Sequence record: NC_073085.1
DNA from: Escherichia phage vB_EcoS_011D5
Strand: one strand, 5' to 3'
Length of the DNA stretch: 45,204 bases
In this document: positions 13,483-38,868 of the stretch, piece by piece
How positions within the stretch are numbered: position 1 is the stretch's first letter
How the letters are laid out: each line of letters starts with the position of its first letter
Notes under the pieces: model-generated
The model's input: only the letters and a program-made list of their open reading frames with translations
Databases searched by the model: none
What the model was told of the DNA's origin: nothing
Made by a program: the position numbers and the translations under genes

Positions 13483-13498
13483 TTATGCAAGCGTGATA

Positions 13499-13536
13499 TA
13501 GTCCCAGTGAGATAAAACTTACTGGGACTTTTTTTA
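13499..13536 (+). terminator. Hairpin plus T-run abutting the start of the lysis cassette
   Basis: AGTCCCAGT...ACTGGGACT followed by TTTTTTT directly before the ATG at 13536. Confidence 0.55.
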
Positions 13537-13826
13537 TGGATAAGCTAAACGAGTGGCTATTCGCCCTGGCATGTCTGGCGGGTGGCTTCGTAGGCGCACG
13601 CATTCATGGCGAGGCTACGAAGGGGCCGCTAAACTTCGTTTTGTATGTCGTAGTTGGCTTCCTGTGTGCCATATTTGGCGCACCGGCTATTGCCGAGTGG
13701 GCTGGTTTGTCGGGGGAGCGCACTGTCGCCGGTTTGGGCTTCGTGACCGCAATTTTCTGGATGCCAATCGCCGACCGGATCAGGGAGACTATTGCGTCGT
13801 TCCGACTTCCGGGGGGTGCAAAATGA
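13536..13826 (+). CDS. Holin-like membrane protein (2-3 TM segments)
   Basis: Hydrophobic segments LFALACLAGGFVGA, FVLYVVVGFLCAIFGAPAI, GLGFVTAIFWMPI; immediately upstream of endolysin. Confidence 0.6.
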   Translation: MDKLNEWLFALACLAGGFVGARIHGEATKGPLNFVLYVVVGFLCAIFGAPAIAEWAGLSGERTVAGLGFVTAIFWMPIADRIRETIASFRLPGGAK

Positions 13827-14068
13827 TTATCTCCGTCCTGTTGTTTGTTATCATCGGGGCTTCGTCCCTGTTTAACGTGTATGCGCCGTCCGTCCAGGAT
13901 GGCATTTTCGGTCGGGTGCTGTATCTGTTAACGGCAATGGTCTGTATTATCGGACTGTTGCAAACAGGAGACGTATCTGATACCACCTGGACCGCGTTAA
14001 TATGGCTGTTTGCATTGCGCACACTGCGTAATGCTGTTTTGAATGGGGTAAAACATGCGATTCAGTGA
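13823..14068 (+). CDS. Second holin/antiholin-like membrane protein
   Basis: MIISVLLFVIIGASSLF...VLYLLTAMVCIIGLL...ALIWLFAL; overlaps neighbours. Confidence 0.55.
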   Translation: MIISVLLFVIIGASSLFNVYAPSVQDGIFGRVLYLLTAMVCIIGLLQTGDVSDTTWTALIWLFALRTLRNAVLNGVKHAIQ

Positions 14069-14546
14069 CAACGGTCTAAGATTTACGGCAGCATGGGAGG
14101 CTTTCAGCCCGGTGCCGTATTTCGCGACCAAGAAAGAGCAGGCCCGCGGCCTGTACACCTGGGGTTATGGTCATACCGGCACTAATCCGCCTCGAAGCAT
14201 TACCCGAGAAGAAGCGCTGGCACTGCTCAAGCGCGATGTGGCGTATGCCGAGGATTGGGTGAACAAATACGCTCATAAGAGCATTAACCAGGCGCAATTT
14301 GACGCGCTGGTGGACCTGGTAATCAATGCCGGTCCGGGTCCGATCGTACCGGATGACGTCGCGAATGATTTCGATGACGCTGTGCGGTTGGGCGACTGGG
14401 CGAAGGTCCGTGCTACGCTGCCGCTGTTCCGCAAGCAAGGCGGGGAAGTGCTTAAGGGTCTGGTACGCCGTGCAATCGGCAGACAGGCGTTGTTTGATGG
14501 TAAGCAGTGGGACGTTGCCGAGCGAATCGGTCGTAACGCAGCATAA
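14055..14546 (+). CDS. Endolysin, GH24/T4-lysozyme-like
   Basis: Catalytic-region pattern AAWEAF...YTWGYGHTG; 163 aa; follows holin-like genes. Confidence 0.8.
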   Translation: MRFSDNGLRFTAAWEAFSPVPYFATKKEQARGLYTWGYGHTGTNPPRSITREEALALLKRDVAYAEDWVNKYAHKSINQAQFDALVDLVINAGPGPIVPDDVANDFDDAVRLGDWAKVRATLPLFRKQGGEVLKGLVRRAIGRQALFDGKQWDVAERIGRNAA

Positions 14547-14562
14547 TACGAGGGGACACGAT

Positions 14563-14964
14563 ATGTTAGATTCGATCTTGCGACGTAAAGAACGCATTAT
14601 CAAGACACTGCCCGCAGTGCAGAACCCAGAAGCGCGCCGCATCCTGGCGGGCGATATGAATATTTCAGGAGTCTTTGACAAGGCGGTGCCTGAAGGGACG
14701 CCGGTGGCGAGCGCTACCGTTACCATCACGCCAGCTACCGCCGCAGTTGGTGAGACAGCCGCCGCGACTGTTGCCATCCTGCCATCCGGCGCTACCAACA
14801 AGGCCGGGTCGTGGGTGTCTGCTAACCCTAACCGCGCCTCAATCAATCCGACTACCGGCGAAATCACCGCGAAAGCTGCGGGTAACGTCCGCATCGTTTG
14901 GGTGGCGTCAGACGGTAGCGGGGTGCAGGCTGACGCAGGCTTCACAGTAACGGCAGCAGAGTAA
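14563..14964 (+). CDS. Bacterial Ig-like (Big_2-like) domain protein
   Basis: C-terminal Ala/Thr-rich beta-sandwich-like ATVTITPATAAVGE...NVRIVWVASDGSGVQADAGFTVTA. Confidence 0.5.
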   Translation: MLDSILRRKERIIKTLPAVQNPEARRILAGDMNISGVFDKAVPEGTPVASATVTITPATAAVGETAAATVAILPSGATNKAGSWVSANPNRASINPTTGEITAKAAGNVRIVWVASDGSGVQADAGFTVTAAE

Positions 14965-14970
14965 ACCAAC

Positions 14971-14996
14971 AAGCCCGGTTAATTCCGGGCTTTTTA
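14971..14996 (+). terminator. Intrinsic terminator
   Basis: AGCCCGG-ttaatt-CCGGGCT followed by TTTTT. Confidence 0.7.
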
Positions 14997-15059
14997 TTGC
15001 TTGACTTGCAACCAACATAGACGCCATACTGCGACCAATCAACGAGAGGAGTAATCACG

Positions 15060-15140
15060 ATGGCACGTAAAGATATTTGGGTATTAGCGATCTGGACCAC
15101 CGCGGCTTTTATCGGCATGGTTATTTGCGAATTGATATAG
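15060..15140 (+). CDS. Small hydrophobic peptide (26 aa)
   Basis: RBS GAGAGGA 9 nt upstream; MARKDIWVLAIWTTAAFIGMVICELI. Confidence 0.3.
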   Translation: MARKDIWVLAIWTTAAFIGMVICELI

Positions 15141-15201
15141 CCCGCCGCCATACGGACCGTGGTATATTGTCCACGGTCCACTAATCAGGAATTAATTAAA
15201 T

Positions 15202-16553: not shown

Positions 16554-16649
16554 ACCGCATAGCCTGCCGATTTGGTGGGCTTTTTTGTGCCTGTTATAAT
16601 CCCCCTTAGATGGCAGGGCCGTCTCCTATGTTGCCGATGGTCGGCGCAT

Positions 16650-18618: not shown

Positions 18619-20139
18619 ATGACCGTTAACGTTGACAACCAGCACCCGCTCTATGCGCGCATCGCGCCAGAGTGGAAAATGATCCGTGATTGTGTAGCAG
18701 GGGAGCGCGCCGTGAAGGCGTGCGGCCCCTTGTACCTGCCACACCCCGCCAGCGGCGACACCACCGACCCGAAATCACGGGCACGCTATAAGGCATATAA
18801 GCAACGCGCTGTCTTCCTGAACGCCACCGCACGCACACTGAATGCACTGTTAGGCGTGGCCTTCGCCAAGCCGGTGAGCATGGACCTTTCCGGGGCAATG
18901 GCTGACCTGATTGATGACGTAGACGGCAGCGGGATGCCACTGGCGCAACTCCTGCGCGGCGCTATGTCGGAAGTGCTGCAATCAGGCCGCGCTGGCTTTA
19001 TGGTGGACTACGACCGCCAGGCTAACTTTGATGAACTGGGTAACGTAGTGCCGCAGACAGCCGCTGAAATGGCGACACATCGCCCGCTTATCCGCCTGTA
19101 TACGGCTGAGCAGATCATTAACTGGCGGCAGACCCACGGGGTCGACACGCTAATCGTGCTGAAGGAGACGGATGAAATCAGCACCGAAGACCCTGACGAC
19201 TTCGCAAACCACGAAGTAACGATCTGGACTGAGCTTCGCATGATTAACGGTGTTGCGCATGGTCGCCGCTGGTTTTACAACGCGGACACGTCCGAAGTGC
19301 AAATGGACTTGCCGCGTGGCTTCACCCGCACCGACCTTGTGCCGCTGGTGGATGCCGACGGTAATGCGCTTACTCAACTGCCATTTTGCTGGTGTGGTGC
19401 TGTGGACAACAACGCGACGCCGGACGCCGCACCGCTGGCGGATATTGCATCCATCAACATTAAGCACTATAACGCCGAAGCAGACGTCGCCGAGATTGCG
19501 CACATTGTGGGACAGCCTACTCTTATCGCGACTGGGCTAACCCAATCATGGGCGGATAAAAACCTGAAGGGCGGCATCGCGCTCGGGGCAACTAAGGGCG
19601 TTATCCTGGGCCAGAACATGGACGCTAAACTGCTTCAGGCCGAAGAACGAAACCTATCGGTCGCACTGTGTGAGCGCCGAGAATTGCAAATGGCTAAACT
19701 AGGCGCGGCCCTGGTCGAAAAGGGGACCGCACCTAAGACGGCAACTGAAGCGGCCTACGATGCGCAGACTGATAACAGTATCCTGTCACTGATTGCCGGT
19801 AACGTTGAGAAGGCTTTCAACCGTGCGCTGCAAATCGTCAAGCTGTTCACGGGAGACACCGCAGATCAACGTGTAACGCTGAATAAGTTCTACACCGAGA
19901 TCACGGTTGACGCACAGCTTATGACCGCGATGATGGCTGGTGTGCAGACCGGTACGGTCCGTCTGGCGGACTTTATCAAGTGGATGATGGCCCAGGGCGT
20001 CATTGATGACTCGCAAACCGTTGAGCAGGTGGAAGACGAATTGCGAAATCAGAATCCATTGCCTCAAATGTCCCCGGATGCGGTAGAATCTACCGAAGAA
20101 GACCCGGACAAGGTAGCGGACAATGGCGAAGACAATTAA
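18619..20139 (+). CDS. Portal protein
   Basis: 506 aa directly after TerL; acidic C-terminus; synteny. Confidence 0.7.
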   Translation: MTVNVDNQHPLYARIAPEWKMIRDCVAGERAVKACGPLYLPHPASGDTTDPKSRARYKAYKQRAVFLNATARTLNALLGVAFAKPVSMDLSGAMADLIDDVDGSGMPLAQLLRGAMSEVLQSGRAGFMVDYDRQANFDELGNVVPQTAAEMATHRPLIRLYTAEQIINWRQTHGVDTLIVLKETDEISTEDPDDFANHEVTIWTELRMINGVAHGRRWFYNADTSEVQMDLPRGFTRTDLVPLVDADGNALTQLPFCWCGAVDNNATPDAAPLADIASINIKHYNAEADVAEIAHIVGQPTLIATGLTQSWADKNLKGGIALGATKGVILGQNMDAKLLQAEERNLSVALCERRELQMAKLGAALVEKGTAPKTATEAAYDAQTDNSILSLIAGNVEKAFNRALQIVKLFTGDTADQRVTLNKFYTEITVDAQLMTAMMAGVQTGTVRLADFIKWMMAQGVIDDSQTVEQVEDELRNQNPLPQMSPDAVESTEEDPDKVADNGEDN

Positions 20140-21226
20140 TCAATATATGGCGGATCGAATGATTCGCCGACACATTTTCACCCAGCGCCTGAGTAATGAC
20201 CAGGCGCGAAGGGTGCTGTCCATGTGGGAGAAGTTCCGGCCTACATTACTGGGGAAGCTGACCGAGTTGCTTGATGGCAAATCGTCAATGAATAACCGGG
20301 CACTTTCCACCCTGCTAACGCAAATCGACAAGACCGTAAAAACGGAACTGCGCACCGAGTTTAAGGCGTTGGCTGAAAGCCTTCAGGAGTTTGCAGACAC
20401 GGAGGCTGATTATCTCGCCGACACATTAACGGCAGCGATCCAGCCGGTGGTCGCAGTACCTGCGATCGAGGTGGTGGGTGTAGTGACCGGTGCGCAGATC
20501 GCAGCGACTGCGATGAAAAACCCGTTCCAGGGAAATACCATGATGCAATGGCCTGACTCACTTTCTGAGTGGACCAGGACGCAGATCGGTAATCAGGTGC
20601 GAGCGGGATTCATCCAGGGCAAGCCGACGATGGAAATTATCGCGGACGTGAGGCGCGCGCTAGGTGGTCGTAGTGCGCAAGCTATCTCGAGCGTTGTTAA
20701 GTCCGCAGTCAATCACTATGCGGCTACCGCCCGAGAACTAATGGTAAAAGCAAATGACGATATTCTCGAAGGTCGCCAATGGTTATCTACATTGGACACG
20801 CATACTTCTCCCATGTGCCAGCTACGCGATCGCCTGTTTTATCCGGTTGATGTTACTCCCGACACCAAAGGAAAGCGCGGCGGGAAAATGGTGGCTGGGT
20901 CACAATATGGCGCTGGTCCGGGCAAGTTGCATTATTGTTGCCGGTCTACGGAGACGTGGAAGGTTAAAGGCATGGAAGATTGGCCCAGTGGTAAGCGTCC
21001 GGCGCTGAAGGCTGACGCGGGTCGATTGCTGAGTGAGCAGGTCGACGCGCAGACTGATTTCTTCTCATGGGTGCGGCGCCAGCCGCGCCATATCCTGGAA
21101 GAATTATACGGAGTGCAACGCGCCGACCAGATTATGCGCGGCGTGAAAGTGCCGAAGATGTTTACCGATTCTGGCGAACTGATGACTATCGCACAGCTTA
21201 AAAACCGGGGGTTATGGCGTGATTAA
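20123..21226 (+). CDS. Head morphogenesis / minor capsid protein (Mu F / SPP1 gp7-like position)
   Basis: 367 aa following portal with slight overlap; synteny. Confidence 0.6.
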   Translation: MAKTINQYMADRMIRRHIFTQRLSNDQARRVLSMWEKFRPTLLGKLTELLDGKSSMNNRALSTLLTQIDKTVKTELRTEFKALAESLQEFADTEADYLADTLTAAIQPVVAVPAIEVVGVVTGAQIAATAMKNPFQGNTMMQWPDSLSEWTRTQIGNQVRAGFIQGKPTMEIIADVRRALGGRSAQAISSVVKSAVNHYAATARELMVKANDDILEGRQWLSTLDTHTSPMCQLRDRLFYPVDVTPDTKGKRGGKMVAGSQYGAGPGKLHYCCRSTETWKVKGMEDWPSGKRPALKADAGRLLSEQVDAQTDFFSWVRRQPRHILEELYGVQRADQIMRGVKVPKMFTDSGELMTIAQLKNRGLWRD

Positions 21227-21548
21227 ATATGCAGCGATTGGACTGGTTATCGGTCTGGCGGTAGGATTCTGGCTAGGTGACTCCTATCGCGCTGGCGTAG
21301 TGGCGGAGGCGGCGCAAGAAGCGCAAGCCAAAGCCCAACGGCAGCAAACTAAAGTTGTGGAGCGCTCCGTGCAGGCCGAACAGGCCCGCGACGTGGAATA
21401 CCGGACTATCACGAAAGAGGTTGTTAAATATGTTACGCGCCCTAACCGCCCTGATTGTAGTTTTGATGCTGAGCGCGTGCGGATCAAGCAACGCGCCGTT
21501 GATGCCGCTAACGGAGTCGGCACTGCGACCGCCGTGCAAGTTCGATAG
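21219..21548 (+). CDS. i-spanin (Rz-like): N-terminal TM helix plus coiled coil
   Basis: MIKYAAIGLVIGLAVGFWLG then charged helical region; GTG start. Confidence 0.6.
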   Translation: MIKYAAIGLVIGLAVGFWLGDSYRAGVVAEAAQEAQAKAQRQQTKVVERSVQAEQARDVEYRTITKEVVKYVTRPNRPDCSFDAERVRIKQRAVDAANGVGTATAVQVR

Positions 21549-21660
21549 CCCGTCCGCAGACCCCGACGAGGATTTGATGATTGACGTGAAAAATATGGAA
21601 TGCGGGGCGAAGCTAAGGGCGCAGGTGCTGGAGTTGCAGCAAATAATTAAGGGGCCGTAA
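21430..21660 (+). CDS. o-spanin (Rz1-like) lipoprotein, +1 frame overlapping the i-spanin 3' end
   Basis: MLRALTALIVVLMLSAC lipobox LSAC; Pro-rich mature region; overlapping-gene architecture. Confidence 0.6.
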   Translation: MLRALTALIVVLMLSACGSSNAPLMPLTESALRPPCKFDSPSADPDEDLMIDVKNMECGAKLRAQVLELQQIIKGP

Positions 21661-21672
21661 TGGCCCCTTTTT
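21650..21672 (+). terminator. Intrinsic terminator between convergent genes
   Basis: GGGGCC-gtaa-GGCCCC followed by TTTTT. Confidence 0.65.
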
Positions 21673-21674
21673 CG

Positions 21675-22439
21675 TTAGCGCGGAATACCGCAAATCTCGT
21701 TGAGAGTTTTCACATCCAGCGCCACCGCCGTGGATTTTGGCTTATCCGGGTAAGGGATGAATTGCTCAACTTCAGGCCATGCCTTAATCAGCTTCTTATC
21801 GGTATTGTGCATGTCCAGCACACCGGTAACGGTAAACTTGAATGCGTCATACTTAGCACGCAACTCACGGCGGGCCTTGTCGTTACGGTCAAGGCGCTTG
21901 CAGAAGTCATGATCTGCCGGGAAATCCGCACGGCAGCGTGGCTTATAGATCGGCAGCGATTTTCCGTCCTCGTCCACTTCACACACTGAAGCCAACATAA
22001 CTGTCTCGAACCCCGGAACGATATCTCCGAGATCAGGCGAGAGCGTATTCATATATTTCTCTTCCCAGTATCCGCGATGTACGCGGTATTGGCGACCGTC
22101 ACCGCTCAAGGACAAGATGCGAACATTGCCGCCTGCGTTGATTTCAAAGGTGGCGTCGTAAACGCTGCCGATACCCTTCGGGCGATCTGTGTCATAGCGA
22201 TATGTTGCCTTGTTGGTGTATACGCTGACGTTGTACATCTGCGACTGGTCGTCGCGGATTGCCTTGATATGCTCGCGGAGCGCTGCGAACGTGCGAATGC
22301 CTTCCGGCATACAGTCCAGCGTGATTGCGTACGCCAGGTCGCGAGAGTCCATCATGATTGTTTTGGCTTCGGTAGCGATTTCGTGGTCGCGCAGGATGTT
22401 AGCCAGGATCTGATTTTTAATGTCTTTCGTCAGTCTCAT
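21675..22439 (-). CDS. Hypothetical protein (254 aa) in a minus-strand cassette inside the head module
   Basis: ATG start, opposite strand to flanking structural genes; no motif recognised. Confidence 0.6.
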   Translation of the reverse strand: MRLTKDIKNQILANILRDHEIATEAKTIMMDSRDLAYAITLDCMPEGIRTFAALREHIKAIRDDQSQMYNVSVYTNKATYRYDTDRPKGIGSVYDATFEINAGGNVRILSLSGDGRQYRVHRGYWEEKYMNTLSPDLGDIVPGFETVMLASVCEVDEDGKSLPIYKPRCRADFPADHDFCKRLDRNDKARRELRAKYDAFKFTVTGVLDMHNTDKKLIKAWPEVEQFIPYPDKPKSTAVALDVKTLNEICGIPR

Positions 22440-22478
22440 TTTTATGTCCTCATTTTAGGGGCTTTCGCCACGATTGGT

Positions 22479-22793
22479 TTAGTTGAATTTGATGTTGCCA
22501 CCGGTGGAAGTTAAGCGGGCACATACAGCTTCAACGGCATCGACGCACATGAAATCGTTAAAGGCTTCGACCAGGGCGTTTATGAAAGATGCCGGAACCA
22601 GGCCGCAAGCCGGATTATCGAATATCGCGGAGTTGATCGCCGCTTTTGCCGCTTCAGAAGCATTCATGCTCTGGCACAGATTCAGCGCTTCCGCGTTACG
22701 CATTGCGTGAAAGGTAAAGGTATTAGCTACGGTAGCTTTATTGAAACGGGCCATTGCGGCGTCTACTGGAGTTGCTACGGTCATGTTAGTCAT
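22479..22793 (-). CDS. Hypothetical protein (~104 aa), first gene of the minus-strand cassette
   Basis: RBS AAGGAAG 7 nt upstream of ATG; preceded by two TTGGTTGCA motifs. Confidence 0.5.
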   Translation of the reverse strand: MTNMTVATPVDAAMARFNKATVANTFTFHAMRNAEALNLCQSMNASEAAKAAINSAIFDNPACGLVPASFINALVEAFNDFMCVDAVEAVCARLTSTGGNIKFN

Positions 22794-37657: not shown

Positions 37658-37682
37658 AAGGGGCCGGATGGCCCCTTTTTAA
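37658..37682 (+). terminator. Intrinsic terminator between convergent genes
   Basis: GGGGCC-ggat-GGCCCC followed by TTTTT. Confidence 0.7.
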
Positions 37683-38644
37683 TAGATGTTAGGAATTACG
37701 AGTAACGGGGTGGGTACTGCAATGTTTTTACCCGGCATTTGGAATTGCTGCCGTGAATAGTTGCCGATTACCCGGTTTTTGGCGATGCGCACATTACCGC
37801 CTGCCATTCGAATCCCGTTCATTCGAACGTGATTGTAGCCGCCGTTGTTCTCAATGAGCGCGCCGGTATACGAAAGCTGGACCAGGCTATTGCCTATGTA
37901 CTGATCGCCGCCGCCGATATAGATAAGGCGGTCATAAACAAATGGCTTATTCACTGTTGAGAACGTGACCTGACCCTGGTTGTTTGTCATGGTGATGCCG
38001 TTTCCGGGGGTGGGTGGCGTATTGTTGAATATAACCAGGTCCATTTCAACGGCAGCGCCTACGTCGTCAATCCCACCATAGGACGCATTACGGACGATAA
38101 TACTTCCGCCATCGAAGCCGACCGACACGTTTCCGTCGTCCCAGCGCGCGAATGGGACACCGCCTACAGGTAACGGCATACTTCCGTTCACCCACACGCG
38201 CTGCGCATATTGGCAGGTCATTAGCCTGGATACATTTGATATGGCGGTAAAGTCCGTCGAGTTCGCCACCAGTAACCCTGCGTTGCGCGAACCCACCGGC
38301 AACACTTCCATGATCACCCCGCCCCATGTTGGAAGCCCGCTATATGCGCCATATGCGTCTTCACCTCGCAAGGTGATTCCGCCATCCCCGTTACGTTGTA
38401 CTGAGGTGACGTAGAAAGGGTCGGGCAAGACCAGTGTCTGGTCGAATACTTCTATAACTTCAACGGGGCTTGTGAGCGCGACGACCAGATCTGACCCTGG
38501 CGTTAGCTGAGTGTTAATAGTAAGCGTCTTATCAGACTGGCAGCGCTGATAGAATGAGGTACAGAATGACGGAGCGCGAAGTCCGGCTGTTATCTCCATC
38601 ACCGGCCTTCCGTCGTTGTAGTCTATAAGTATTCCAGCGCCCAT
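37679..38644 (-). CDS. Hypothetical Gly/Asn-rich protein (possible beta-solenoid), co-transcribed with the lipoprotein
   Basis: Repetitive G/N/V-rich motifs (GGGDQYIGN, NNGGYNH, GGNVRIAKN); start coupled to lipoprotein stop. Confidence 0.55.
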   Translation of the reverse strand: MGAGILIDYNDGRPVMEITAGLRAPSFCTSFYQRCQSDKTLTINTQLTPGSDLVVALTSPVEVIEVFDQTLVLPDPFYVTSVQRNGDGGITLRGEDAYGAYSGLPTWGGVIMEVLPVGSRNAGLLVANSTDFTAISNVSRLMTCQYAQRVWVNGSMPLPVGGVPFARWDDGNVSVGFDGGSIIVRNASYGGIDDVGAAVEMDLVIFNNTPPTPGNGITMTNNQGQVTFSTVNKPFVYDRLIYIGGGDQYIGNSLVQLSYTGALIENNGGYNHVRMNGIRMAGGNVRIAKNRVIGNYSRQQFQMPGKNIAVPTPLLVIPNIY

Positions 38645-38646
38645 AA

Positions 38647-38868
38647 TTACCACTCCCGAGATTTAACTGATACCGTACCAGAGAAGTTGCCGTCACTATC
38701 CGCGGACAGGCCGGTGAAGCGCATGTCGACCTCCCCGGCAGGGACTTTTTGCCCGTCAACGTAGCGCAACATGCAGCTTCCGTAAGCTACCGTAATGCAA
38801 TCGCCGTTGTTACGCTCTACCGCGCAGCCGGACAGAAGAACCGCACAAATCACAATTAATGTTTTCAT
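38647..38868 (-). CDS. Small lipoprotein (73 aa precursor), Llp/Cor-like superinfection-exclusion candidate
   Basis: Signal peptide MKTLIVICAVLLSGC with lipobox LSGC; RBS AGGGGA; next to receptor-binding genes. Confidence 0.6.
   Translation of the reverse strand: MKTLIVICAVLLSGCAVERNNGDCITVAYGSCMLRYVDGQKVPAGEVDMRFTGLSADSDGNFSGTVSVKSREW

What the first reader, a model, noticed from the sequence alone, without database searches (positions are those of the whole stretch)
21219..21660. Overlapping spanin-like gene pair located 7 kb from the holin/endolysin cassette
A TM-anchored coiled-coil protein (21219-21548) and a +1-frame overlapping lipoprotein (21430-21660, lipobox LSAC) have classic Rz/Rz1 architecture. 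They sit at the end of the head-morphogenesis gene, far from the holin-like genes and endolysin at 13536-14546. Spanins are usually adjacent to the endolysin, so the lysis functions here are split across two transcription units.
Basis: partly seen in the sequence, partly recalled or inferred. Interest (0 to 1): 0.4.

Follow-up and report, generated by a model that had tools for sequence, protein, structure and literature searches.

The report
Known overlapped spanin pair of a Dhillonvirus
The two overlapping small genes are a real inner-membrane/outer-membrane spanin pair that completes host lysis in this E. coli phage, but the family and its position among the head genes, away from the holin and endolysin, are already catalogued, so the finding is correct and ordinary.

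Summary
ORF 21219-21548 encodes 109 aa with an N-terminal transmembrane segment. ORF 21430-21660 lies in the +1 frame and encodes 76 aa with signal peptide and lipobox LSA|C. Both exist as described. They start 8 nt inside the end of the head-morphogenesis gene and lie 6.7 kb downstream of the holin-holin-endolysin genes.

The window is a Dhillonvirus (HK578-like E. coli siphophage), near-identical to vB_EcoS_L-h 1M. The two proteins hit PHROG "Rz-like spanin" families (2536 at 4.5e-37; 5672 at 4e-26; 1267 at 7e-12). All 18 Dhillonvirus genomes compared keep the start codon, ribosome-binding site, lipobox and cysteines. Substitutions cluster at third codon positions of the o-spanin frame beyond the i-spanin stop, so that frame is translated.

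Kongari et al. 2018 already list HK578, JL1 and other phages of this group in the overlapped "Jersey" spanin family. BASEL phage Bas15 annotates the same i-spanin/o-spanin pair. Kagunavirus K1G shows the same split layout, and Jerseyvirus SeF1 has the same PHROG gene set at distant gene numbers. More distant homologues sit in canonical holin-holin-endolysin-spanin cassettes.

"Two transcription units" is plausible from predicted hairpin terminators and one promoter-like motif, but it is untested. Practical yield: the closest GenBank records start the o-spanin too late and call it hypothetical. Novelty: already known. Interest: low.

The parts
21219..21548 (+). i-spanin gene. It encodes 109 aa from a GTG start, with an N-terminal transmembrane segment at about residues 4-20 and an 88-aa basic periplasmic domain with a single Cys80.
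   Evidence: ORF. phrog_2536 'Rz-like spanin' at 4.5e-37. Hydropathy, pI and Cys. 42% identity to the K1G Rz-like spanin. Conserved in 18 genomes, with a tail of 102 or 109 aa.
21430..21660 (+). o-spanin gene in the +1 frame. It encodes a 76-aa prolipoprotein with lipobox L-S-A-C (Cys17). The mature form is 60 aa, acidic and 12% Pro, with Cys36 and Cys58. Residue +2 is Gly, so there is no Asp inner-membrane retention signal.
   Evidence: ORF. phrog_5672 at 4e-26 and phrog_1267 at 7e-12. Composition. 48% identity to the K1G o-spanin. Conservation and codon-position pattern. Same start as the Bas15 o-spanin annotation.
21430..21548 (+). 119-nt doubly coding overlap. It encodes the i-spanin C-terminal part in frame 0 and the o-spanin signal peptide and N-terminal part in frame +1.
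   Evidence: Nucleotide diversity is lower here (0.078) than in the singly coding flanks (0.104 and 0.116). In the last 21 nt the variation follows the o-spanin frame.
21415..21420 (+). Shine-Dalgarno-like AAGAGG, 9 nt upstream of the o-spanin ATG.
   Evidence: Read directly from the sequence. Columns 296-302 and the ATG are invariant in 18 genomes.
21649..21669 (.). Bidirectional intrinsic-terminator-like hairpin AAGGGGCC-GTAAT-GGCCCCTT followed by Us. The 5' arm encodes the last o-spanin residues and the loop holds the TAA stop. It closes the plus-strand block and faces the convergent minus-strand gene 21675-22439.
   Evidence: Scan. Fold: -15.5 kcal/mol (z -3.5) on the plus strand and -15.9 kcal/mol (z -3.8) on the minus strand. 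The stem is kept in all 18 genomes.
20123..21226 (+). Head-morphogenesis (minor capsid) gene. Its stop codon overlaps the i-spanin start, which suggests translational coupling.
   Evidence: phrog_241 at 5.5e-116. The GTGATTAA overlap is read.
13536..14068 (+). Two holin genes, 13536-13826 and 13823-14068.
   Evidence: phrog_2359 at 8.5e-32 and phrog_2508 at 2.1e-27. Hydrophobic sequences.
14055..14546 (+). Soluble lysozyme-type endolysin with no N-terminal signal-anchor-release (SAR) domain. GenBank places its start at 14112.
   Evidence: PF00959 at 1.7e-20. phrog_7. Sequence.
14971..14992 (+). Terminator-like hairpin after the holin-endolysin-Ig-domain genes.
   Evidence: Fold -15.0 kcal/mol, z -4.2.
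16561..16600 (+). Terminator-like hairpin (16561-16581) followed by the extended -10-like motif TGtTATAAT (16592-16600), upstream of the small terminase gene. This is the predicted start of the terS-terL-portal-head morphogenesis-spanin unit.
   Evidence: -15.2 kcal/mol. Identical promoter-like motif in BMA1. Many Dhillonvirus records align at 97-99% only from position 16561 onward.

Best explanation
The two genes are the phage's two-component spanin. The 109-aa product is anchored in the inner membrane by its N-terminal helix and extends a mostly helical, basic domain into the periplasm. The 76-aa product is exported, lipidated on Cys17, cleaved by signal peptidase II and sorted to the outer membrane. 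The two periplasmic domains bind each other, and disulfide-linked homodimers span the periplasm through the murein mesh. After the holins release the soluble lysozyme and the murein is degraded, the complexes can move sideways and fuse the inner and outer membranes, which is the last step of lysis.

Shown here: the ORFs, the targeting signals, the family matches, purifying selection on both frames, and conserved synteny. Inferred from the lambda Rz/Rz1 model: complex formation, disulfide bonding and membrane fusion.

The pair is expressed at the 3' end of the packaging and head-gene block. It is probably translationally coupled to the head-morphogenesis gene, and it is closed by a bidirectional terminator. 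It is not expressed with holin and endolysin. This layout is shared by Dhillonvirus and Kagunavirus K1G (Guernseyvirinae).
For: Family matches: phrog_2536, phrog_5672 and phrog_1267, all named 'Rz-like spanin'.

Anatomy: transmembrane segment, lipobox, Gly at +2, Pro-rich acidic mature lipoprotein and periplasmic cysteines.

Conservation: all diagnostic features are kept in 18 genomes, and there is a third-codon-position excess in each frame where it codes alone.

Literature and annotation: Kongari et al. 2018 place HK578, JL1, SSL-2009a, EK99P-1, EP23 and SO-1 in the overlapped 'Jersey' i- and o-spanin families, and note the variable extreme C-terminus of the i-spanin (PMC6139136). Bas15 is annotated with i-spanin and o-spanin at the same position. 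K1G has the same layout, with 42% and 48% identity. Jerseyvirus SeF1 carries the same four PHROGs for spanins and holins (PMC9409062).

Context in distant relatives: the homologues L022 and L023 (38-39% identity, same PHROGs) lie directly after holin-holin-endolysin. In L025 the homologue follows an endolysin-like ORF and a small hydrophobic ORF, named by eye from the translations only, with an intervening reverse-strand ORF.

No competitor: no other spanin candidate exists in the window. The gene after the endolysin is an Ig-domain protein.
Against: No experiment on this family was found. Function rests on homology, anatomy and context. Pfam and NCBIfam give no hit. The structure model is low-confidence. 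The pair is not linked to holin and endolysin in this genome.
Confidence: 0.93

Rival explanations
1. The lipoprotein and the membrane protein are a superinfection-exclusion or receptor-masking pair (Cor/Llp-like) rather than lysis proteins.
For: Small phage lipoproteins can be exclusion factors. The pair is not next to holin and endolysin. The window does encode another small lipoprotein, with a weak Cor match.
Against: The strong matches are to spanin PHROGs, not to Cor or Llp. Homologues of both genes sit in canonical lysis cassettes. The overlapped TM-protein-plus-lipoprotein architecture and the conserved periplasmic cysteines are spanin hallmarks (PMC6139136). The Cor-like candidate lies elsewhere, near the tail genes.
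Confidence: 0.03
2. Only the 109-aa membrane protein is real, and the +1-frame ORF is an untranslated by-product of the sequence.
For: Gene callers in the closest records either truncate it (start 21502) or call it hypothetical.
Against: The 112 nt beyond the i-spanin stop have no other reading frame, yet variable columns by codon position are 12/5/23 in the o-spanin frame. ATG, Shine-Dalgarno sequence, lipobox and three Cys are invariant in 18 genomes down to about 75% identity. The product is homologous to the o-spanins of K1G and L023.
Confidence: 0.02
3. The pair serves capsid assembly, as its position inside the head-gene block would suggest.
For: Its position lies between the head-morphogenesis and scaffold/major capsid genes, and its start overlaps the head-morphogenesis stop.
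Against: Both products carry export or membrane signals that are incompatible with cytoplasmic capsid assembly. Neither protein matched a head or packaging PHROG; every named match of both proteins was to a spanin family.
Confidence: 0.02

Closest known systems
'Jersey' overlapped two-component spanin family of Kongari et al. 2018 (shorter subfamily 'EP23 to SO-1', which includes HK578, JL1, SSL-2009a and EK99P-1); equals PHROG 2536 with 5672/1267
   Same: The genus and the genes are the same. The architecture is overlapped +1-frame, the periplasmic cysteines are conserved, and the extreme C-terminus of the i-spanin is variable. The Bas15 orthologues are annotated i-spanin and o-spanin at the same genome position.
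   Different: Nothing of substance. This isolate's i-spanin starts with GTG, as in the 17 other Dhillonvirus sequences aligned, whereas its closest GenBank record has ATG there. The closest GenBank record leaves both genes 'hypothetical' and truncates the second.
Spanins of Guernseyvirinae (Kagunavirus K1G gp06/gp07; Jerseyvirus SeF1 Gp_009/Gp_010)
   Same: In K1G the gene order is holin-holin-endolysin, then terminase, portal and head morphogenesis, then the spanin pair, then scaffold and major capsid. The holins and spanins fall in the same PHROGs in SeF1. Identity to K1G is 42% and 48%.
   Different: The K1G i-spanin is longer (128 aa). In K1G a Hoc-like gene and a gap separate it from the head-morphogenesis gene, so there is no start/stop overlap. 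Dhillonvirus has a minus-strand insert (Nmad5 gene and others) between the spanins and the scaffold gene.
Lambda Rz/Rz1 (prototype two-component spanin)
   Same: A type II inner-membrane protein with a helical periplasmic domain is paired with a small Pro-rich outer-membrane lipoprotein encoded in the +1 frame. Both have periplasmic cysteines. The presumed mechanism is the same.
   Different: In lambda Rz1 is fully embedded in Rz and lies in the lysis cassette. Here the o-spanin runs past the i-spanin stop and the pair lies 6.7 kb from the endolysin. No Pfam match to any family, including Rz-type spanins, was found. The i-spanin is shorter, at 109 aa.
T4 pseT.3/pseT.2
   Same: The spanin genes are unlinked from holin and endolysin (PMC6139136 Fig. 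8 legend).
   Different: The T4 genes are separated, not overlapped, and belong to a different sequence family.

Membership tests
Two-component spanin (i-spanin/o-spanin) | The i-spanin has a single N-terminal transmembrane segment, with the rest of the protein periplasmic. | tested here: met
   Residues 1-17 have KD(17) of 1.95. No other hydrophobic segment is visible in the rest of the sequence, which is 31% charged.
Two-component spanin (i-spanin/o-spanin) | The periplasmic domain of the i-spanin is mainly alpha-helical, as two helices joined by a linker (coiled coil). | tested here: inconclusive
   The single-sequence AlphaFold2 model gives helices 5-72 and 84-97 with a break at PNRPDC, but mean pLDDT is only 58.6. 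This agrees with the description of the subfamily in PMC6139136. No coiled-coil predictor was run.
Two-component spanin (i-spanin/o-spanin) | The o-spanin has a signal peptidase II signal with a lipobox Cys, and no Asp at +2 (outer-membrane sorting). | tested here: met
   The sequence is MLRALTALIVVLMLSA|CGS. The h-region KD is 2.57, Arg is at position 3 and Gly is at +2. The lipobox [LM][ST]AC is kept in 18 of 18 sequences.
Two-component spanin (i-spanin/o-spanin) | There is at least one periplasmic Cys for homotypic intermolecular disulfides (PMC6139136). | tested here: met
   i-spanin Cys80 and o-spanin Cys36 and Cys58 are conserved in 18 of 18 sequences. Disulfide formation itself was not tested.
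Two-component spanin (i-spanin/o-spanin) | The o-spanin gene is embedded in, overlapped with, or directly follows the i-spanin gene. | tested here: met
   The architecture is overlapped: +1 frame, 119-nt overlap.
Two-component spanin (i-spanin/o-spanin) | Both reading frames encode proteins under selection. | tested here: met
   Variable columns by codon position are 23/12/45 in the i-only segment and 12/5/23 in the o-only segment. Diversity is reduced in the overlap.
Two-component spanin (i-spanin/o-spanin) | The products form a periplasm-spanning complex, and loss blocks outer-membrane disruption (spherical cells with Mg2+). | not testable with these tools
   This needs genetics, microscopy or complementation of lambda Rz/Rz1 mutants.
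'Jersey' spanin family (Kongari 2018) / PHROG 2536 + 5672/1267 | Sequence similarity to family members in both proteins. | tested here: met
   phrog_2536 at 4.5e-37, phrog_5672 at 4e-26 and phrog_1267 at 7e-12. BLASTP against the K1G pair gives 5e-16 and 8e-16. Phages of this group (HK578, JL1, EK99P-1 and others) are listed in the family, and several of them are near-identical to the window here.
Canonical lysis cassette (holin-endolysin-spanin contiguous) | The spanin genes lie adjacent to the endolysin. | tested here: not met
   The distance is 6.67 kb, with six annotated genes between the endolysin and the i-spanin. The gene after the endolysin is a Big_2 Ig-domain protein. Adjacency is not a defining feature of spanins, as T4 shows.

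The most novel reading that the evidence does not exclude
The spanin pair may be deliberately wired into the packaging and head operon. That operon would be bounded by the 16561 hairpin with its extended -10 motif and by the 21649 bidirectional terminator, and the pair would be translationally coupled to the head-morphogenesis gene. Spanin supply would then track capsid production rather than holin and endolysin expression. Because the same two spanin families occur in canonical cassettes elsewhere (L022, L023), the pair would have been relocated as a unit in the common ancestor of Dhillonvirus and Guernseyvirinae. This would be a small point about how lysis-gene dosage is regulated, not a new kind of system.
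Probability: 0.4. Interest if true: 0.2.

Novelty: already known. Interest (0 to 1): 0.08.

Why it matters
The main value is for annotation. The closest public record (OM262540.1), and many other Dhillonvirus records, call these two genes hypothetical and start the second one 72 nt too late, which removes its signal peptide. PHROG 5672 matched only residues 32-76 of the protein and has just 47 positions, which is consistent with a profile built from such truncated calls. Correct calls matter when such phages are assessed or engineered for therapy, because spanins are needed for efficient release. Biologically, the genome adds one more example that lysis genes need not be clustered. That was already established.

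Tried and rejected
- Pfam and NCBIfam scans of both proteins gave nothing useful. Only PHROGs recognises the families.
- I checked whether a spanin lies in the usual place after the endolysin. ORF 14563-14964 is an Ig-like (Big_2) structural-type protein, not a spanin.
- I scanned all six frames for further lipoprotein or unimolecular-spanin candidates. The only other convincing signal is 38647-38868 on the minus strand, which looks like an exclusion lipoprotein. The hits at 20754 and 39353 are weak and lie inside other genes.
- The alternative TTG start at 21421 for the o-spanin is rejected. It abuts the Shine-Dalgarno sequence with no spacer, and the ATG is invariant.
- Single-sequence AlphaFold of the i-spanin gave a low-confidence model, used only for secondary structure.
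- Most fetched loci did not appear in the script sandbox, so the comparative statistics were computed on the alignment files.
- I did not run the large protein database searches. Identity was already settled by PHROGs, the phage records and the literature.

Full report
**Observation.**
- ORF 21219-21548 has a GTG start and encodes 109 aa beginning MIKYAAIGLVIGLAVGFWLG. The rest is 31% charged and basic (pI 9.8), with one cysteine at position 80.
- ORF 21430-21660 is in the +1 frame, has an ATG start and encodes 76 aa beginning MLRALTALIVVLMLSAC-GSS. This is a textbook lipoprotein signal: Arg3, a hydrophobic core, lipobox L-S-A-C, and Gly at +2.
- The mature 60-residue part is acidic and 12% proline, with two further cysteines.
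- AAGAGG lies 9 nt before the ATG.
- The genes overlap by 119 nt, and the second continues 112 nt past the stop of the first. In the spanin nomenclature this is 'overlapped', not 'embedded'.
- The GTG of the first gene overlaps the TAA of the head-morphogenesis gene (phrog_241, 5.5e-116).
- The holins (phrog_2359, phrog_2508) and a soluble lysozyme (PF00959) lie at 13536-14546, which is 6.67 kb upstream.

**Where the window comes from.** The region is 98.7% identical, at identical coordinates, to Escherichia phage vB_EcoS_L-h 1M (OM262540.1, Dhillonvirus). 156 phage records match it, and 135 of them cover at least 80% of the 2.4-kb query. In that closest record both genes are 'hypothetical protein', and the second is started at 21502, which removes the signal peptide.

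**Is it more than chance?** Three lines of evidence say yes.
- A six-frame scan for lipoprotein signals found only one other convincing case in 45 kb.
- In an ungapped alignment of 18 Dhillonvirus sequences, reaching down to about 75% protein identity, all of the following are kept:
  - the 76-codon frame, its ATG and the Shine-Dalgarno sequence;
  - the lipobox ([LM][ST]AC);
  - Cys17/36/58 of the o-spanin and Cys80 of the i-spanin.
- Codon-position statistics show selection on each frame where it codes alone:

| Segment | Variable columns by codon position (1/2/3) | Mean diversity |
|---|---|---|
| i-spanin only | 23/12/45 | 0.104 |
| Overlap | mixed pattern | 0.078 |
| o-spanin only (beyond the i-spanin stop) | 12/5/23 | 0.116 |

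In the o-only segment, per-position diversity is 0.092, 0.027 and 0.225. The last seven i-spanin codons vary in the pattern of the o-spanin frame, and the i-spanin ends at 102 or 109 aa in different phages. This matches the published remark that the extreme C-terminus of this i-spanin family is variable (PMC6139136).

**What it is.** PHROGs places the first protein in phrog_2536 (4.5e-37). It places the second in phrog_5672 (4e-26, residues 32-76 only) and phrog_1267 (7e-12, residues 4-74). All three are named 'Rz-like spanin'. Pfam and NCBIfam have no model that matches.

Kongari et al. 2018 list HK578, JL1, SSL-2009a, EK99P-1, EP23 and SO-1 in the overlapped 'Jersey' family for both i- and o-spanins. 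They describe a shorter subfamily with two helices and conserved cysteines. A single-sequence AlphaFold model agrees on secondary structure (helices 5-72 and 84-97, with a break at PNRPDC) but has low confidence (pLDDT 58.6).

**Context in relatives.**
- Kagunavirus K1G (Guernseyvirinae) has the order holin-holin-endolysin, then terminase, portal, head morphogenesis and a Hoc-like gene, then Rz-like spanin x2 (annotated 'overlapping gene'), then scaffold and major capsid. Its proteins are 42% and 48% identical to the window's.
- Jerseyvirus SeF1 is reported with spanins in phrog_2536/5672 and holins in phrog_2359/2508. These are the same four families as here, at gene numbers 9-10 and 63-64 (PMC9409062).
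- The split arrangement is therefore shared by Dhillonvirus and Kagunavirus K1G, with the SeF1 gene numbers pointing the same way for Jerseyvirus. It is not a feature of this genome alone.
- More distant members of the same two PHROGs in IMG/VR contigs L022 and L023 (38-39% identity) lie directly after holin-holin-endolysin in a canonical cassette.
- In L025 the homologue follows an endolysin-like ORF and a small hydrophobic ORF, which I named by eye from the translations only, with an intervening reverse-strand ORF. This association supports a lysis role.

**Mechanism.** By analogy with lambda Rz/Rz1 (established knowledge; inferred here), the inner-membrane protein and the outer-membrane lipoprotein join through their periplasmic domains as disulfide-linked homodimers. 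Once the holins release the soluble lysozyme and the murein is degraded, the complexes fuse the two membranes. The targeting signals, cysteines and pairing are shown here. Complex formation and fusion are inferred.

**Transcription.** On the plus strand there are four stable hairpins followed by U-tracts:

| Hairpin | Free energy | Position relative to genes |
|---|---|---|
| 13500-13529 | -19.8 kcal/mol | just before the holin |
| 14971-14992 | -15.0 kcal/mol | after the Ig-domain gene that follows the endolysin |
| 16561-16581 | -15.2 kcal/mol | before the small terminase gene |
| 21649-21669 | -15.5 / -15.9 kcal/mol on the two strands | overlaps the o-spanin stop |

Directly after the 16561 hairpin lies TGtTATAAT, an extended -10-like motif. 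It is identical in BMA1, and it lies in a stretch that many Dhillonvirus records share at 97-99% identity even when the sequence upstream differs. It is prediction only.

**Rivals.** Three alternatives were considered.
- An exclusion-type lipoprotein pair. The family matches and the cassette context of homologues argue against this.
- A chance +1 ORF. The codon-position data and invariant signals argue against this.
- A head-assembly role. Both products carry export signals, which argues against this.

**Verdict.** The feature is a typical member of a catalogued spanin family in its usual genomic position for this phage group. Novelty: already known. The useful by-product is an annotation correction for the o-spanin start in many public records.

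Noticed in passing
window 13493-13538: A 12-bp hairpin followed by seven Us (13500-13529; -19.8 kcal/mol, z -6.1) ends 6 nt before the first holin's ATG at 13536, so the holin has almost no leader. A TGaTATAGT extended -10-like motif lies at about 13493-13501, so a transcript started there would begin inside the 5' arm of the hairpin. This may gate holin expression: read-through from upstream would terminate, while local initiation would escape. The sequence is identical in BMA1 except for one fewer T in the run after the hairpin.
   Followed up: partly
window 21502-21660; OM262540.1, BMA1 and other records: Public records start the o-spanin at an internal ATG (21502, 52 aa), which removes the signal peptide and lipobox. 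PHROG 5672 has only 47 positions and matched only residues 32-76, which is consistent with a profile built from such truncated calls.
   Followed up: yes
window 38647-38868 (-) and 37679-38653 (-): A second small lipoprotein (MKTLIVICAVLLSGC...; phrog_4281, with a weak Cor superinfection-exclusion match) overlaps by 7 nt a 324-aa 'membrane protein' (phrog_1265). Both lie on the minus strand among the tail genes. They are probably a superinfection-exclusion or receptor-masking pair, not a spanin.
   Followed up: partly
window 21675-22439 (-): A 254-aa protein with a full-length Nmad5 domain (nucleotide modification associated domain 5; PF18757, 1.6e-60) converges on the spanin terminator. It is part of a minus-strand insert between the spanins and the scaffold gene that K1G lacks.
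   Followed up: no
window 15001-15140: The promoter-like motif TTGACT-18-CATACT (15001-15030) is followed by an unannotated 26-codon hydrophobic ORF (15060-15140, MARKDIWVLAIWTTAAFIGMVICELI). Further on there is an inverted repeat, GGACCGTGG...CCACGGTCC (about 15156-15180). The first part of this intergenic region did not align with BMA1.
   Followed up: partly
window 19900-20370 compared with OM262540.1: The window has the same length and coordinates as OM262540.1 and is identical to it from about 20370 to 22500, except for A/G at 21219 (ATG there, GTG here). Over 19900-20370 (portal end and head-morphogenesis start) it is several per cent diverged from OM262540.1 and resembles BMA1 instead. 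This looks like a recombination patch or a different isolate.
   Followed up: partly
window 14563-14964 (+): The gene directly after the endolysin encodes a Big_2 Ig-like domain protein (phrog_215, 'structural protein with Ig domain'). It sits where a spanin would be expected. The open frame extends back to 14326, inside the endolysin gene.
   Followed up: partly
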